Positions 6,001 to 15,000 of a stretch of DNA of 64,000 nt are shown here, in pieces. Position numbers: made by a program. The DNA is from Escherichia coli (GTDB taxonomy: Bacteria > Pseudomonadota > Gammaproteobacteria > Enterobacterales > Enterobacteriaceae): the NCBI RefSeq assembly GCF_011045215.1, contig NZ_CP049201.1; one strand, 5' to 3'. How positions within the stretch are numbered: the stretch's first letter is position 1; each line of letters begins with the position of its first letter.

Positions 6001-9000
6001 AGGTGCTGATTGCACTGGAGATGTTGTTACCTGTTGGACTGTATGTGTCAGTTGGCGTGACGCTAGGGCAGATGTATACCGACTCGGAAATTACTGCTAT
6101 CTCTGCGGCGGGGGGCAGTCCGGGACGCTTGTACAAAGCCGTTCTTTATCTGGCGATACCGCTAAGTATTTTTGTCACCCTTCTGTCGATGTATGGTCGT
6201 CCGTGGGCTTATGCGCAGATTTATCAGCTGGAGCAACAGTCACAGTCGGAACTGGATGTTCGCCAGTTGCGGGCAAAGAAATTTAACACTAACGATAACG
6301 GACGAATGATCCTTTCGCAGACGGTTGATCAGGATAATAATCGCCTGACTGACGCGCTGATTTATACTTCTACTGCCAATCGAACCCGCATTTTCCGCGC
6401 CCGTTCGGTTGATGTGGTTGACCCATCACCCGAGAAACCGACCGTTATGTTGCATAACGGCACAGCCTATCTTCTCGATCATCAGGGGCGTGACGACAAC
6501 GAACAGATCTACCGTAATCTGCAATTACATCTGAATCCGCTGGATCAAAGCCCTAACGTCAAACGCAAAGCGAAATCGGTCACGGAGCTGGCGCGCTCCG
6601 TCTTTCCAGCCGATCATGCCGAACTGCAATGGCGACAAAGCCGTGGCCTGACAGCATTGTTGATGGCGCTGCTGGCCATTTCATTAAGTCGGGTAAAACC
6701 GCGGCAAGGGCGATTTTCAACATTATTGCCACTGACGTTGCTGTTTATTGCCATTTTTTATGGCGGCGACGTCTGCCGTACGCTGGTGGCTAACGGCGCA
6801 ATTCCCCTCATTCCTGGTTTGTGGTTAGTGCCCGGACTCATGCTAATGGGCCTGCTGATGCTGGTCGCACGCGACTTCTCTTTGCTGCAGAAATTTTCCC
6901 GATGAATGTTTTCAGTCGCTATTTAATCCGTCATCTCTTTCTCGGTTTTGCCGCCGCCGCAGGGCTATTGCTGCCGCTTTTTACCACCTTCAACCTGATT
7001 AACGAACTGGATGATGTCAGCCCGGGCGGTTATCGCTGGACTCAGGCGGTGCTGGTGGTGCTAATGACCTTACCGCGCACACTGGTCGAACTTTCGCCGT
7101 TTATCGCCTTATTGGGAGGGATTGTTGGCCTGGGGCAGTTATCGAAAAACAGTGAGCTTACCGCCATTCGCAGCACGGGTTTTTCTATCTTCCGTATTGC
7201 ACTGGTGGCGCTGGTTGCCGGGATATTGTGGACTGTTTCGTTAGGCGCGATAGATGAGTGGGTAGCGTCGCCATTGCAGCAACAGGCGCTGCAAATCAAA
7301 TCGACCGCCACTGCGTTGGGGGAGGACGATGATATTACCGGCAATATGCTTTGGGCCAGGCGCGGTAATGAATTTGTAACGGTGAAATCGCTGAACGAGC
7401 AGGGCCAGCCGGTGGGCGTGGAGATATTTCATTATCGCGACGATCTCTCGCTCGAATCCTACATTTATGCACGCAGTGCCACCATTAAAGACGACAAAAT
7501 GTGGATCCTGCATGGTGTGAATCATAAAAAATGGCTTAACGGTAAAGAAACGCTGGAAACATCAGATAATCTTGCCTGGCAATCGGCCTTCACCAGTATG
7601 GATCTTGAAGAGCTATCGATGCCGGGGAATACTTTTTCTGTCCGTCAGCTTAATCATTACATCCATTATTTGCAGGAAACCGGGCAACCCAGCAGCGAAT
7701 ACCGCCTTGCACTGTGGGAAAAACTGGGGCATCCCATTTTAACCCTGGCGATGATTTTGCTGGCAGTGCCTTTTACCTTTAGTGCCCCGCGCTCGCCAGG
7801 GATGGGTAGCCGTCTCGCTGTAGGTGTCATCGTTGGCTTACTCACCTGGATCAGCTATCAAATCATGGTCAATCTGGGATTGCTATTTGCGTTGAGCGCA
7901 CCTGTTACCGCGCTCGGTTTACCGATAGCGTTTGTGCTGGTGGCGTTGAGCCTGGTGTATTGGTATGACAGACAACATTAAACCCGCCGTGGCGCAACAC
8001 CACGGCGGGCTCACATTACTGCTTCAGAGTAGCAAATGCCTGAATGATGGCATCGATTTGCTCACGACTGTGGGCAGCGTTTACGCTACAGCGCAGCAGC
8101 GTGATGCCTGCAGGCGCGGCAGGTGGCAGGATAAGATTCACATAAACGCCCAGCGAAATAAGCTCGCGCCAGATGCGTAAACCGTCCTCTTTCGAACCGA
8201 TTATTACCGGCACTACCGGGCTAATATGTGAACTTAACTCATAACCCAGTTTTTGCAGACCGTCATACAGATGGTTGGCATTATCCATCAGCTTTTGCCG
8301 CAGCTCTGGTTGTGTGGCAATAGTTCTTAACGACGAGCGCACGGTCGCAATGCAGGACGGAGAAGGAGAGGCGGTAAAAATATACGGGCGGCTGCCGTAG
8401 CGCAGCACTTCCATCGCTTCCGAACCGACAGCAAAACCGCCAATCGAGGCCAGACTTTTACTGAAGGTGCCAACGATAATATCCACATCATCTTCAACGC
8501 CTACAGCTTCAGCCAGTCCGTGCCCCGTTGCGCCTAACACGCCAAACGAATGCGCTTCATCGACAATCAAATAACCACCGAGACGACGTTTGATATCAAC
8601 AATTTCCGCCAGCGGCGCAACGTCACCGAGCATACTGTAGATGCCCTCAACGATGATAATCGCCTCTTTCGCCCGTTCACCGAGGCGAACCATGCGCCGT
8701 TCCAGATCTTTAGCATCGTTATGGCGGAAACGAATAATTTCCGCGCCACCGAGAGAACAGGCGTCATAAATACTGGCGTGGCTGTCGGCATCCAGTAACA
8801 CCACGGCGTTATGGTCGGCAAGTGCGCTGATGACGCCTAAATTAGCGGTATAACCGGTTGAAAAAACGATAGCGGTAGGGCGATTGAAAAACTCGGCAAT
8901 CTCTTTCTCTAACGCCAGGTGCGGCGCATAACTGCCGTTTGCCATACGAGAACCGGTGGTGCCGGTGCCTTGGGTCGCTAACGCTGCCTGACCTTCGGCG

Positions 9001-12000: not shown

Positions 12001-15000
12001 TTCCAGCGCTACTCAGAGCGGCGTAGTCCAAAGCATCAACCAGCGTTGGAAAATCGGCATAGCGCATAGGTAGGGAATGCGTAAAGATTTTATTAGACAT
12101 ATACACCACGAAAAAATTGGATATCCAAAATAAAATGACAATAATGCGGTGGATTATATAGGCATAAAAGATAAATGAGATAGTATTTTCATCAGTGTGA
12201 AAATGAACATTGATTTAAATAATGAGTTTGAGTTTTTTTGTTTTTATTGTGAATGATATTTAATTTATGAATATATTAAGAAGAAGCCTTGTCCGGTCGC
12301 CTTAAATCGACAAAAGGCATTGTGGCGCTTCTGTGTAGTCGCTGACCTTATCGTAATCATTAATAAATACTATTTATTCGTCGTTTGTATTCATTGGGTT
12401 GATTATTAAGGTGCCGTTCGTTGCTGTTGCAACCTGTTTGTCACCGTTAATTATTTGTTACCCACAGAACTATGGAATGCGATCTGCTGATGATTAAAAT
12501 TGAAAAAGTAATTAATAAAAATGACCTTAAGGCATTTATCGCTTTTCCGTCATCACTTTATCCCGACGATCCAAACTGGATACCCCCTTTATTCATTGAA
12601 CGCAACGAGCATTTGTCTGCGAAAAATCCGGGGACGGACCATATCATCTGGCAGGCGTGGGTGGCAAAAAAAGCGGGGCAGATAGTTGGGCGTATTACCG
12701 CGCAAATAGATACCTTGCACCGCGAGCGTTACGGCAAAGATACCGGTCATTTCGGCATGATTGACGCCATTGATGATCCGCAGGTTTTTGCCGCGTTGTT
12801 TGGCGCAGCGGAAGCGTGGTTGAAGTCACAAGGTGCAAGTAAGATCAGCGGTCCTTTCAGCCTGAATATCAATCAGGAAAGCGGATTACTGATTGAAGGT
12901 TTCGATACACCACCCTGTGCGATGATGCCGCACGGTAAACCGTGGTATGCCGCGCATATTGAACAATTGGGTTATCACAAAGGCATTGATTTACTGGCGT
13001 GGTGGATGCAGCGAACCGATCTCACTTTCTCTCCGGCGCTAAAAAAACTGATGGATCAGGTGCGCAAAAAGGTGACCATTCGCTGCATCAATCGCCAGCG
13101 GTTTGCCGAAGAGATGCAGATCCTGCGTGAGATTTTCAACTCTGGCTGGCAGCACAACTGGGGATTTGTGCCGTTTACCGAACATGAATTCGCGACCATG
13201 GGCGACCAACTTAAATATCTGGTGCCGGACGATATGATCTACATCGCTGAGATTGATTCTGCACCCTGCGCGTTTATTGTCGGCTTGCCGAACATCAACG
13301 AGGCGATTGCCGATCTGAACGGATCGCTCTTTCCCTTCGGCTGGGCAAAATTGCTGTGGCGTTTGAAAGTCAGCGGTGTGCGAACTGCGCGAGTGCCGCT
13401 GATGGGCGTGCGGGACGAGTATCAGTTCAGCCGCATCGGCCCGGTGATTGCGCTGTTATTGATTGAAGCCTTACGCGATCCGTTTGCCCGCCGGAAGATC
13501 GATGCGCTGGAGATGTCATGGATCCTCGAAACCAATACAGGCATGAATAACATGCTGGAACGCATTGGGGCGGAGCCGTACAAGCGTTACCGATTGTATG
13601 AAAAGCAGATTTAATACCAGCTAACTCAGGTTCATCTCCAGCGGCACCGCCGAGCGAATCAAATGGTGGCCTTCCAGCTCGATATCGTGGAGATTCTTTT
13701 TCACGGTCCGCACATGATCGCGTGCTGCGCGCTGGGCGACGTGCGGCAGCCGCTGCAACACCGCGTTGTAGATCCGCGCATGCTGGCGATCGATCTGCTT
13801 TTTTTGCTGTGGTCGATGGTAGAGATTATTTACGCTGGCAAACACTGAATTAAACATCAGGTCGGTCAATGATTGCAGCGTAAACACCAGCACCTGATTG
13901 TGAGAAGCCTGACAAATGGCGAGATGGAAAGCGTGATCCAACTGCGCATGTTCGATCAGCGAAATCTCTTTGTTGTTCTCACTGGCGGCGAGCATTTTTT
14001 CATAACAGCGGGTTATCACAACAAAATCAGCCTGCGTTCCCAGCGTTGCCGCCAGCCTTGCCGATTCGCCCTCCAGCAATGCGCGAACGTCGAGCAGATC
14101 GTACAGCGTTCGCGGCTGCGTACTGAACAGATGGATCAGCGGGCTGGTGTCCTGCACCCGATTAAGCCGTGCGACACGAGAATCGCGACCCTGCGCCGTT
14201 TCAATAATCCCGCGCCCGCGCAGCACGGTCAGCCCTTCACGCAGTGCGGAGCGTGAGAACCCGAGCTTTTCACACAGTCGACGTTCCGAGGGAAGCGGCT
14301 GACCGACCTTCAGTACGCCGTCGATAATTAACCGTTCGATACTCTCTGCAACCACTTCGCAAATAGGGCGACGTTCATCTTTCATTCCCGGACCTCGTGC
14401 ACAGGTAGGACCAATTTTTCTGTTCTTGACTCGCAAAACACGCACATCACGTAAGTGATTATGTTACATCAATTTAACATTGAGTTAACCAAGACAAGGT
14501 CACAGAGCTGGAAAAAAAAATGGTCTGACCGGTAGCTAAAGAGATAGACGAAAACGAAAAGCCCGCTTAATAACTGTTCACAGAAGCAGCGCGCAAAAAT
14601 CAGCTGCCACACAACATAACAAAGCGAAGCCTACTCATGAGCATCTTGTACGAAGAGCGTCTTGATGGCGCTTTACCCGATGTCGACCGCACATCGGTAC
14701 TGATGGCACTGCGTGAGCATGTCCCTGGACTTGAGATCCTGCATACCGATGAGGAGATCATTCCTTACGAGTGTGACGGGTTGAGCGCGTATCGCACGCG
14801 TCCATTACTGGTTGTTCTGCCTAAGCAGATGGAACAGGTGACAGCGATTCTGGCTGTCTGCCACCGCCTGCGTGTACCGGTGGTGACCCGTGGTGCAGGC
14901 ACCGGGCTTTCTGGTGGCGCGCTGCCGCTGGAAAAAGGTGTGTTGTTGGTGATGGCGCGCTTTAAAGAGATCCTCGACATTAACCCCGTTGGTCGCCGCG

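What the first reader, a model, noticed from the sequence alone, without database searches (positions are those of the whole stretch)
8016..13614. Ceramide/sphingolipid-type lipid synthesis module (Spt-like, ACP, CerR-like reductase, acyl-ACP synthetase, GNAT-like YghO)
The minus-strand operon encodes, in transcription order, a fatty acyl-AMP ligase/acyl-ACP synthetase, an NAD-dependent epimerase-family reductase, an acyl carrier protein and a PLP-dependent alpha-oxoamine synthase of the serine palmitoyltransferase type, with overlapping start/stop codons. Divergently transcribed next to it is yghO, a GNAT-like acyltransferase. This is the same gene set, in the same spt-acp-reductase-synthetase arrangement, reported for Caulobacter ceramide synthesis, where a GNAT-fold enzyme is the bacterial ceramide synthase. 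E. coli is not normally considered a sphingolipid producer, so the locus may make a ceramide-like or N-acyl-amino lipid that is uncharacterised in this genus. My recollection is that this block is absent or decayed in K-12.
Basis: partly seen in the sequence, partly recalled or inferred. Interest (0 to 1): 0.85.

Follow-up and report, generated by a model that had tools for sequence, protein, structure and literature searches.

The report
E. coli ceramide (sphingolipid) synthesis locus
This stretch really does encode the five-enzyme bacterial ceramide pathway (fatty-acid loader, carrier protein, serine palmitoyltransferase, reductase, ceramide synthase). The same E. coli locus was already described and partly tested in 2022, so the reading is correct but not new.

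Summary
On the minus strand lie aasR (fatty acyl-AMP ligase, 10379-12067), epi/cerR (9468-10382), acpR (9188-9436) and spt (8016-9188). yghO (12472-13614) is transcribed divergently from them.

The Spt-like protein passes NCBI's curated serine palmitoyltransferase model and fails the BioF, KBL, HemA and CqsA models. Its nearest solved structures are Sphingomonas SPTs.

YghO has no Pfam hit but models confidently as a tandem GNAT. It is 44% identical over its full length to the Caulobacter homologue that sits 8 kb from spt. In 43 of 47 loci from other species, YghO homologues lie within 10 kb of sphingolipid or lptF2/lptG2 genes.

Padilla-Gómez et al. 2022 (PMC9386255) assigned exactly these five E. 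coli BL21 genes (ECD_02850-02854, 97-100% identical to the window). They showed that AcpR carries 4'-phosphopantetheine and that AasR+AcpR+Spt make a lipid that co-migrates with 3-oxo-sphinganine. A 2026 preprint draws the E. coli UTI89 sphingolipid operons beside those of Caulobacter in a figure on LptFGC homologues.

The locus is in about 75% of complete E. coli genomes and was lost from K-12 by an IS5-associated deletion.

Still open are the native product, its regulation, and the role of the adjacent yghS-yghR-yghQ-(274 aa)-ytfJ-like genes.

The parts
10379..12067 (-). aasR: fatty acyl-AMP ligase / acyl-AcpR synthetase (PGAP start; the longest ORF extends to 12109)
   Evidence: NCBIfam NF006624 fatty acyl-AMP ligase, 875.6 bits against a cut-off of 600. 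98.6% identical to the BL21-derivative orthologue, i.e. ECD_02851 of PMC9386255.
9468..10382 (-). epi/cerR: extended-SDR NAD(P)-dependent reductase
   Evidence: Pfam Epimerase PF01370, 4e-20. GATGFIG (9-15) and Y122-x3-K126 can be read from the sequence. 36% identical to the Caulobacter gene in the same operon position. Corresponds to ECD_02852.
9188..9436 (-). acpR: specialised acyl carrier protein
   Evidence: Weak ACP matches, all below the housekeeping AcpP cut-offs. Ser39 lies in a GLESI motif. 100% identical to the BL21 protein, which was shown to carry 4'-phosphopantetheine (PMC9386255).
8016..9188 (-). spt: serine palmitoyltransferase (PLP-dependent alpha-oxoamine synthase)
   Evidence: NF047599, 597 bits against a cut-off of 500; below cut-off for BioF, KBL, HemA and CqsA. 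Best PDB hit is S. paucimobilis SPT 2jg2 at 374 bits, against about 200 for KBL and about 172 for BioF. H137, D210, H213, K244 and R366 are conserved. 99.2% identical to BL21 ECD_02854.
12068..12471 (.). AT-rich divergent intergenic region between aasR and yghO; presumed control region
   Evidence: GC falls to about 0.42-0.45 here; sequence. The promoter scan gave no more matches than shuffled sequence, so no promoter is assigned.
12472..13614 (+). yghO: bCerS/Aca-type N-acyltransferase (bacterial ceramide synthase homologue)
   Evidence: No Pfam or NCBIfam hit for the E. coli protein itself. AF2 model has pLDDT 95.3 and a tandem-GNAT fold (Foldseek 2wpw, 7q3a, MshD). 16 of 52 family members weakly match PF00583. 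44% identical over residues 8-380 to the Caulobacter sp. homologue. Linked to sphingolipid or lptF2/G2 genes in 43 of 47 full-flank loci.
7979..8013 (.). Hairpin with a 16-bp stem in the 34-nt gap between the convergent lptG2 and spt genes; probable bidirectional terminator
   Evidence: 10 G-C pairs. The scan as a whole found no more terminators than shuffled sequence, so this rests on position and stem length.
5835..6905 (+). lptF2: second LptF-family permease
   Evidence: TIGR04407, 318 bits against a cut-off of 230. Homologues lie just downstream of yghO homologues in many taxa. Caulobacter LptF2/G2 are implicated in sphingolipid transport (bioRxiv 10.64898/2026.04.12.717747).
6902..7981 (+). 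lptG2: second LptG-family permease
   Evidence: TIGR04408, 305 bits against a cut-off of 240. 4-nt overlap with lptF2.
5241..5804 (+). YtfJ-family protein whose N-terminus looks like a signal peptide (candidate accessory, function unknown)
   Evidence: TIGR01626, 212 bits against a cut-off of 151. The N-terminal MMSSRLIIALIIMLLAPGVQA reads as a signal peptide (judged by eye). Also found next to lptF2/G2 in Pluralibacter.
4408..5232 (+). 274-aa all-helical protein of unknown function (candidate accessory)
   Evidence: No Pfam, NCBIfam or PDB sequence hit. AF2 pLDDT 91.5. The best fold match is weak: CHAD domain 6qv5, E 0.06. Family of about 344 proteins, mostly Enterobacterales. Travels with yghQ.
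3059..4408 (+). yghQ: MOP-family flippase-like membrane protein (candidate lipid flippase)
   Evidence: Weak match to NF007773 MOP flippase. Homologues carry Pfam Polysacc_synt. MOP flippase genes recur beside spt in L027, L030 and L038.
1510..3013 (+). yghS and yghR: paralogous P-loop, weakly dTMP-kinase-like proteins (candidate head-group enzymes)
   Evidence: Pairs of homologues lie inside or beside the spt/yghO cluster in a betaproteobacterium (L027), Pseudomonas marginalis (L006) and Serratia (L002/3).
644..1336 (-). yghT: third P-loop paralogue, divergent from yghS
   Evidence: Kept next to spt in Serratia.

Best explanation
The locus is the E. coli version of the proteobacterial ('Rhodobacteria-type') ceramide pathway. 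AasR adenylates a free long-chain fatty acid and loads it onto the 4'-phosphopantetheine arm of the dedicated carrier AcpR. Spt, a PLP enzyme, condenses acyl-AcpR with L-serine, releasing CO2, to give 3-oxo-sphinganine. YghO, a tandem-GNAT N-acyltransferase homologous to Caulobacter bCerS/Aca, adds the amide-linked acyl chain. The SDR Epi/CerR reduces the 3-keto group, giving dihydroceramide. The order of these last two steps is disputed in the literature. The convergent operon next door supplies LptF2/LptG2, which probably extract the lipid from the inner membrane for delivery to the outer membrane, using the housekeeping LptB as in Caulobacter. Shown (literature, on proteins 99-100% identical): AcpR is a holo-ACP, and AasR+AcpR+Spt yield a lipid that co-migrates with 3-oxo-sphinganine. 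Shown here: family membership, catalytic residues, the GNAT fold, and conserved gene linkage. Inferred: the YghO and Epi activities in E. coli, transport by LptF2/G2, and the identity and amount of the native product. Under laboratory conditions the locus appears to be silent or weakly expressed.
For: Spt scores above the curated Spt cut-off and below all the sister-family cut-offs. Its nearest solved structures are SPTs. The catalytic His/Asp/His/Lys/Arg residues are conserved in all 38 homologues examined. FAAL scores 875 bits. The SDR motifs are present and the protein is 36% identical to the Caulobacter operon partner. YghO is 44% identical over its full length to the Caulobacter homologue, has a tandem-GNAT model with pLDDT 95, and 16 of 52 relatives weakly match GNAT. 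In 47 loci of other species with full 10-kb flanks, 25 have spt, 27 have lptF2+lptG2, and 43 have one or the other beside the YghO homologue. The divergent aasR-yghO arrangement recurs in Pseudomonas, Salinicola, Nitrococcus, Methyloversatilis and others. The window proteins are 97-100% identical to those of a BL21(DE3) derivative. [quoted passage not shown] LptF2/G2 are required when sphingolipids are made and bind LptB in Caulobacter.
Against: No sphingolipid has been reported from unmodified E. coli. Empty-vector BL21, which carries the locus, showed no 3-oxo-sphinganine spot. Neither YghO nor Epi from E. coli has been assayed. The products in PMC9386255 were identified by TLC co-migration. 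The E. coli locus has no homologues of the Caulobacter head-group genes, so the final product is unknown. The residue equivalent to R378 of S. paucimobilis SPT is Leu here, but it is hydrophobic across the whole clade, including Caulobacter. YghO itself matches no Pfam or NCBIfam model.
Confidence: 0.85

Rival explanations
1. The enzymes are intact, but in E. coli the locus is a silent or rarely expressed accessory module. It makes no significant lipid under ordinary growth and matters only in a niche that has not been identified, or it is drifting toward loss as in K-12.
For: Empty-vector BL21 makes no detectable 3-oxo-sphinganine. The control region is AT-rich, which is typical of silenced DNA (inference). 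About 25% of complete genomes lack the full block, and K-12 lost it through IS5 without obvious harm.
Against: All genes are intact and 96-99.6% conserved in 4051 genomes. Proteins are 69-83% identical between E. coli, Serratia and Pluralibacter. This argues for purifying selection and therefore for use.
Confidence: 0.25
2. The pathway makes a related but non-canonical lipid rather than a ceramide. Candidates are a free or N-acylated amino-ketone built from an amino acid other than serine, or a long-chain base that is never N-acylated by YghO.
For: The E. coli products were identified only by TLC co-migration. The R378-equivalent residue, which contacts the serine carboxylate in S. paucimobilis SPT (my own knowledge), is Leu. 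YghO activity has not been tested.
Against: 14C-serine was incorporated by SPT(Ec) into a spot that co-migrates with 3-oxo-sphinganine. The same Leu/Ile/Val substitution occurs in Caulobacter Spt, which is a proven ceramide producer. YghO is 44% identical to the Caulobacter bCerS-position gene.
Confidence: 0.08
3. The alpha-oxoamine synthase is a BioF- or KBL-type enzyme, and the cluster serves biotin or threonine metabolism.
For: It shares the fold and gives sizeable sub-threshold scores against the BioF and KBL models.
Against: It is below both curated cut-offs and above the Spt cut-off. PDB ranking puts SPTs about 170-200 bits ahead. No biotin or threonine genes appear in any of 85 loci. 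A published assay shows the serine-dependent product.
Confidence: 0.01

Closest known systems
E. coli BL21(DE3) ECD_02850-ECD_02854 (yghO/aca, aasR, epi, acpR, spt), Padilla-Gómez et al. 2022, PMC9386255
   Same: It is the same locus. The proteins are 97-100% identical, with the same order and the same flanking genes.
   Different: Only strain-level substitutions. That paper did not discuss the neighbouring yghS-lptG2 operon.
Caulobacter crescentus ceramide genes CC_1165-CC_1162 (aasR, cerR/epi, acpR, spt) and CC_1154 (bcerS/aca)
   Same: Same five protein families and the same aasR-epi-acpR-spt order. In a Caulobacter sp. locus, Spt is 53% identical, YghO/bCerS 44% and Epi 36%. Both Spts fall under NF047599. 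LptF2/LptG2 paralogues sit in the locus.
   Different: In E. coli yghO is immediately divergent from aasR (about 400 bp) rather than about 8 kb away. E. coli lacks the cpgABC-type head-group genes and LptC2 in the locus. Instead it has yghQ/R/S/T, a 274-aa helical protein and a YtfJ-like protein. No native lipid has been shown.
Sphingomonas paucimobilis serine palmitoyltransferase (PDB 2jg2)
   Same: Same fold and catalytic residues; 374-bit alignment over residues 3-385.
   Different: The E. coli enzyme belongs to the ACP-coupled clade, in which the R378 position is hydrophobic. It prefers acyl-AcpR over acyl-CoA (PMC9386255).
Caulobacter LptB2F2G2 sphingolipid transporter (bioRxiv 10.64898/2026.04.12.717747)
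   Same: A second LptF/LptG pair is encoded in the sphingolipid locus with no second LptB. The preprint's Fig. 2B includes the E. coli UTI89 sphingolipid operons.
   Different: Nothing has been tested in E. coli.

Membership tests
Bacterial serine palmitoyltransferase (Spt), ACP-coupled proteobacterial clade | Scores above the curated Spt equivalog cut-off and below those of BioF, KBL, HemA and CqsA | tested here: met
   NF047599, 597 bits against a cut-off of 500. BioF 333/426, KBL 296/460, ALAS 219/339, CqsA 222/428.
Bacterial serine palmitoyltransferase (Spt), ACP-coupled proteobacterial clade | PLP-lysine and the catalytic His/Asp/His, plus the carboxylate-binding Arg | tested here: met
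   H137, D210, H213, K244 and R366 align with H159, D231, H234, K265 and R390 of 2jg2. The roles of these residues are from my own knowledge of the SPT literature.
Bacterial serine palmitoyltransferase (Spt), ACP-coupled proteobacterial clade | The spt gene is immediately preceded by a dedicated acp gene | tested here: met
   The acp stop and spt start overlap by 1 nt. The same arrangement is seen in 30 or more other loci.
Bacterial serine palmitoyltransferase (Spt), ACP-coupled proteobacterial clade | Catalyses serine + acyl-thioester -> 3-oxo-sphinganine | not testable with these tools
   Reported for the 99.2%-identical BL21 enzyme, by TLC with 14C-serine (PMC9386255).
AcpR (specialised ACP for sphingolipid synthesis) | Small ACP with a phosphopantetheine-attachment serine, distinct from housekeeping AcpP | tested here: met
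   ACP-model hits of 19-36 bits, all below the AcpP cut-offs. Ser39 lies in GLESI. 4'-PPant labelling is reported for the identical protein.
AasR (acyl-AcpR synthetase, FAAL-type) | Fatty acyl-AMP ligase family membership | tested here: met
   NF006624, 875.6 bits against a cut-off of 600.
AasR (acyl-AcpR synthetase, FAAL-type) | Selective acylation of the cognate AcpR | not testable with these tools
   Inferred in vivo for the E. coli pair in PMC9386255.
CerR/Epi (sphingolipid 3-keto reductase) | Extended SDR with GxxGxxG and YxxxK, homologous to the Caulobacter gene between aasR and acpR | tested here: met
   PF01370, 4e-20. Motifs can be read in the sequence. 36% identity, E 2e-45. Same operon position.
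CerR/Epi (sphingolipid 3-keto reductase) | Reduces 3-keto-(dihydro)ceramide or 3-ketosphinganine | not testable with these tools
   Not assayed for E. coli. PMC9386255 only suggests it.
bCerS/Aca (bacterial ceramide synthase) | Full-length homology to the Caulobacter bCerS-position gene | tested here: met
   44% identity over residues 8-380, E 1e-107, to L084:9974-11131, which lies 8 kb from epi-acp-spt. I could not fetch CCNA_01212 itself. Orthology of the L084 gene to it is inferred from position.
bCerS/Aca (bacterial ceramide synthase) | GNAT-type acyltransferase fold | tested here: met
   AF2 pLDDT 95.3. Foldseek top hits are tandem GNATs, E about 5e-15. 16 of 52 relatives weakly match PF00583. 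The E. coli protein alone has no Pfam hit.
bCerS/Aca (bacterial ceramide synthase) | Genomic linkage to sphingolipid genes across taxa | tested here: met
   43 of 47 full-flank loci.
bCerS/Aca (bacterial ceramide synthase) | N-acylates the long-chain base | not testable with these tools
   Not assayed for YghO.
LptF2/LptG2 (sphingolipid-locus Lpt permease paralogues) | An LptF and LptG family pair encoded in the sphingolipid locus, in addition to the housekeeping pair | tested here: met
   TIGR04407 at 318 bits and TIGR04408 at 305 bits, adjacent to spt. K-12 lacks them yet has essential lptFG elsewhere (established knowledge).
BioF / KBL (8-amino-7-oxononanoate synthase / glycine C-acetyltransferase) | Reaches the curated equivalog cut-off; biotin or threonine gene context | tested here: not met
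   Below the cut-offs. No such context in 85 loci.

The most novel reading that the evidence does not exclude
The sphingolipid module in E. coli may be larger than the published five genes plus lptF2/G2. The tightly packed operon yghS-yghR-yghQ-(274-aa helical protein)-ytfJ-like-lptF2-lptG2, with divergent yghT, would supply a head-group modification that differs from Caulobacter's CpgABC chemistry. In this reading the P-loop kinase-like YghR/S/T do the modification, YghQ acts as a MOP-type flippase, and the remaining proteins act as periplasmic or accessory factors. Most E. coli strains, but not K-12, would then be able to place a so-far unseen anionic sphingolipid in the outer membrane under conditions not reproduced in the laboratory.
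Probability: 0.3. Interest if true: 0.55.

Novelty: already known. Interest (0 to 1): 0.25.

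Why it matters
E. coli is the textbook 'three-phospholipid' organism. Even so, about three quarters of sequenced strains carry a complete ceramide pathway with its own Lpt-type permeases; these include BL21 and, per the literature, ETEC B7A and UTI89. 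The field already knows this. What remains testable is whether wild E. coli actually makes a sphingolipid, which one, when, and whether it affects outer-membrane robustness, polymyxin or detergent sensitivity, or host signalling as Bacteroides sphingolipids do. There are also two practical points. K-12 and BL21 differ at this locus, which matters for lipidomics and for heterologous sphingolipid work in BL21. And PGAP names the paralogues simply 'lptF' and 'lptG'.

Tried and rejected
- **YghO family searches.** Pfam and NCBIfam on YghO gave nothing. Its family had to be established by homologue search, structure model and gene context.
- **The 274-aa protein.** Pfam, NCBIfam and PDB sequence searches gave nothing. 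The CHAD-domain fold match is weak (E 0.06, TM 0.48) and no family member hits the CHAD Pfam model, so I do not assign it.
- **YghR.** The PDB sequence search found nothing. Only weak P-loop and dTMP-kinase-like matches appear.
- **YghR/S/T as ceramide-kinase counterparts.** I considered whether they correspond to the Caulobacter ceramide kinase CpgB. I rejected homology, because CpgB has an LCB5/DAG-kinase domain.
- **Caulobacter LptF2/G2 in L084.** I tried two minus-strand ORFs. NCBIfam gave no hit, probably because I picked the wrong frames in a high-GC locus. I did not pursue this.
- **Promoters and terminators.** The scan found no more sites than shuffled sequence. Only the 16-bp hairpin at 7979-8013 is noted.
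- **Stankeviciute et al. 2022.** The paper could not be retrieved by DOI. Statements about it rest on later papers that cite it.
- **Luteibacter L041.** The stretch between yghO and the yghQ/274-aa pair looks like an RND efflux system judged by ORF sizes only. It was uninformative.
- **Rfam.** No RNA family was found in the locus.

Full report
**Observation.**
- spt: 8016-9188, minus strand, 390 aa.
- acp: 9188-9436, minus strand, 82 aa.
- SDR/epimerase-family gene: 9468-10382, minus strand, 304 aa.
- Adenylate-forming enzyme: 10379-12109 as the longest ORF. PGAP starts it at 12067, giving 562 aa.
- yghO: 12472-13614, plus strand, 380 aa, divergent from the four above.
- glcC follows at 13621.

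The acp/spt junction overlaps by 1 nt and the aasR/epi junction by 4 nt. The epi-acp gap is 31 nt.

**Protein families.**
- Spt-like protein. It scores 597 bits against NCBIfam NF047599 (serine palmitoyltransferase, cut-off 500). It falls below the curated cut-offs for BioF (333/426), KBL (296/460), ALA synthase and CqsA. Against all PDB sequences, the top eight hits are Sphingomonas-type SPTs at about 374 bits. KBL reaches about 200 bits and BioF about 172.
- Spt catalytic residues. The residues that align with H159, D231, H234, K265 and R390 of the S. paucimobilis enzyme are conserved here and in all 38 related Spts I collected. The position of R378 is Leu in E. coli. It is hydrophobic throughout this clade, including Caulobacter, so it does not argue against Spt function.
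- Adenylating enzyme. It is a fatty acyl-AMP ligase (NF006624, 875 bits against a cut-off of 600).
- 82-aa protein. It is an ACP that is distinct from housekeeping AcpP.
- Reductase. It is an extended SDR (PF01370, 4e-20) with GATGFIG and YANSK motifs.

**YghO.** This was the weakest link, because it matches nothing in Pfam or NCBIfam.
- A full scan of 1.84 billion representative proteins found 6502 relatives.
- An alignment of 52 of them (A1) gave an AlphaFold model with mean pLDDT 95.3. Its best PDB matches are tandem-GNAT acyltransferases: 2wpw, 7q3a, a glucosamine N-acetyltransferase and MshD, with E down to 5e-15.
- Sixteen of the 52 relatives weakly match Pfam Acetyltransf_1.

**Gene context in other species.** I scanned one genome per GTDB species with the YghO alignment and obtained 80 loci. 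I then searched them with all the E. coli locus proteins by tblastn.
- 47 loci have full 10-kb flanks. Of these, 25 contain an Spt, 20 contain all four of spt/acpR/epi/aasR, 27 contain an lptF2-lptG2 pair, and 43 contain at least one of these.
- The E. coli arrangement, with aasR-epi-acpR-spt divergent from yghO, recurs in Pseudomonas, Salinicola, Nitrococcus, Methyloversatilis, Wenzhouxiangella and others.
- In a Caulobacter sp. locus (L084) the YghO homologue is 44% identical over residues 8-380. It lies 8 kb from epi-acp-spt. The Spt there scores 681 bits on the same NCBIfam model, and the reductase is 36% identical to the E. coli one.
- No relative shows a biotin or threonine-degradation context.

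**Prior knowledge.**
- Padilla-Gómez et al. 2022 (PMC9386255) name the E. coli BL21(DE3) genes as ECD_02851 (aasR), ECD_02852 (epi), ECD_02853 (acpR), ECD_02854 (spt) and yghO ECD_02850 (aca). They state that the five dihydroceramide genes are clustered only in C. crescentus and E. coli BL21.
- They showed that AcpR(Ec) is labelled with beta-alanine-derived 4'-phosphopantetheine.
- They showed that SPT(Ec) prefers acyl-AcpR over acyl-CoA.
- They suggested that native ECD_02852 and ECD_02850 produce the sphinganine- and ceramide-like spots seen in BL21.
- The window proteins are 97-100% identical to those of a BL21(DE3) derivative. AcpR and YghO are 100% identical and Spt is 99.2% identical.
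- PGAP already names the gene 'spt: serine palmitoyltransferase' in E. coli genomes.

**Distribution.** The 10.1-kb block (window 4400-14500) is covered at 80% or more in 4051 of 5426 complete E. coli genomes, at 96-99.6% identity. In K-12 BW25113 an IS5 element sits between a C-terminally truncated yghQ and yghO, and the 274-aa gene through aasR are absent. The locus also occurs in Serratia and Pluralibacter, in different chromosomal neighbourhoods. Protein identities there are 69-83% for the five synthesis proteins and about 62-72% for the neighbouring genes.

**Surroundings.**
- Converging on spt is a tightly spaced plus-strand gene string: yghS (1510-2223), yghR (2255-3013), yghQ (3059-4408, MOP-flippase-like), a 274-aa protein (4408-5232), a YtfJ-family protein with a signal-peptide-like N-terminus (5241-5804), and second copies of LptF (5835-6905) and LptG (6902-7981).
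- A 16-bp-stem hairpin fills the 34-nt gap before spt.
- LptF2/LptG2 in the Caulobacter sphingolipid locus were noted by Olea-Ozuna et al. 2024 (PMC11324152).
- An April 2026 preprint (10.64898/2026.04.12.717747) shows that they are required when sphingolipids are made, that they form a complex, and that they bind the housekeeping LptB. Its Fig. 2B draws the E. coli UTI89 sphingolipid operons alongside those of Caulobacter. The link between lptF2/G2 and sphingolipid loci is therefore also already in the literature.

**What I did not find discussed.** I found nothing on the association of yghQ, yghR/S/T, the 274-aa protein and the YtfJ-like protein with this system.
- Pairs of YghR/S-like P-loop genes and a MOP flippase lie inside or beside the spt/yghO cluster in a betaproteobacterial MAG (L027), in Pseudomonas marginalis (L006) and in Serratia. 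A yghQ/274-aa pair lies about 10 kb from a YghO homologue in Luteibacter and Dyella.
- The 274-aa protein models confidently as an all-helical protein (pLDDT 91.5). Its only fold resemblance is a weak one to CHAD domains, and no Pfam model supports that.
- These are leads, not findings.

**Mechanism.** The best-supported account is the Rhodobacteria-type ceramide pathway.
1. AasR loads a fatty acid onto AcpR.
2. Spt condenses acyl-AcpR with serine to give 3-oxo-sphinganine.
3. YghO (bCerS/Aca) N-acylates the base and Epi (CerR) reduces the ketone. The order is disputed between the Klein and Geiger laboratories.
4. LptF2/G2, probably with LptB, export the lipid.

The first two steps have experimental support for the E. 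coli proteins. The rest is inferred from homology and conserved linkage.

**Open points.**
- No native E. coli sphingolipid has been reported, and empty-vector BL21 shows none.
- The aasR-yghO intergenic region is AT-rich.
- The locus lacks the Caulobacter cpgABC-type head-group genes.

**Verdict.** The feature is real and correctly interpreted, but already known. Interest is low to moderate. The residual value lies in the unknown native product and in the uncharacterised accessory genes.

Noticed in passing
window 1510-7981 (+), with yghT at 644-1336 (-): yghS-yghR-yghQ-(274 aa)-ytfJ-like-lptF2-lptG2 are spaced by 31, 45, -1, 8, 30 and -4 nt, so they look like one operon converging on spt. 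YghR/S-like P-loop pairs and MOP flippases recur beside spt/yghO in a betaproteobacterium (L027 6904-9671), in Pseudomonas marginalis (L006 2347-3740) and in Serratia (L002/L003). I found no paper linking yghQRST to sphingolipids.
   Followed up: partly
window 4408-5232 (+): A 274-aa protein with no Pfam, NCBIfam or PDB sequence match. The AF2 model is confident (pLDDT 91.5) and all-helical, with many invariant Arg, Lys and His residues. The best fold hit is a CHAD domain (6qv5, E 0.06, TM 0.48), which is weak. The family has about 344 proteins, mostly in Enterobacterales, and always sits next to yghQ.
   Followed up: partly
window 5835-7981 (+): PGAP names these second-copy permeases simply 'lptF' and 'lptG', the same as the essential housekeeping genes. 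They are the sphingolipid-locus paralogues (LptF2/LptG2), so the naming can mislead.
   Followed up: partly
window 8016-9188 (-), Spt residue 354: The residue aligning with R378 of S. paucimobilis SPT is Leu in E. coli. It is L, I, V or F in all 38 Spt homologues found beside yghO-type genes, including Caulobacter. This looks like a mark of the ACP-coupled Spt clade.
   Followed up: yes
window 7979-8013: A hairpin with a 16-bp stem (10 G-C pairs) fills the 34-nt gap between the convergent lptG2 and spt genes. It is a probable bidirectional terminator.
   Followed up: no
L086 (E. coli BW25113) 4738-8103, corresponding to window ~4100-12510: The K-12 deletion is bounded by an IS5 element. yghQ loses its C-terminus, and PGAP annotates yghO as an 1137-nt CDS beginning just inside the IS5 junction. 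yghT, yghS and yghR remain intact in K-12.
   Followed up: yes
window 9468-10382 (-): The E. coli Epi/CerR starts directly with the Rossmann motif (MNQIVAVTGATGFIG) and I see no signal peptide by eye. Yet Caulobacter CerR is reported to be periplasmic (PMC11087976). How an NAD(P)H-dependent reductase would reach or work in the periplasm is unexplained.
   Followed up: no
L002/L003 (Serratia liquefaciens) 11354-11716: In Serratia the gene immediately downstream of yghO is a prokaryotic diacylglycerol kinase (PF01219). The island sits in a different chromosomal context from E. coli (glcC) and Pluralibacter (uspA/uspB/pitA), which indicates that it moves as a module.
   Followed up: no
window 21079-21300 (-): The only Rfam match in the 64-kb window is the sRNA C0719 (299 bits). 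It is unrelated to the locus.
   Followed up: no
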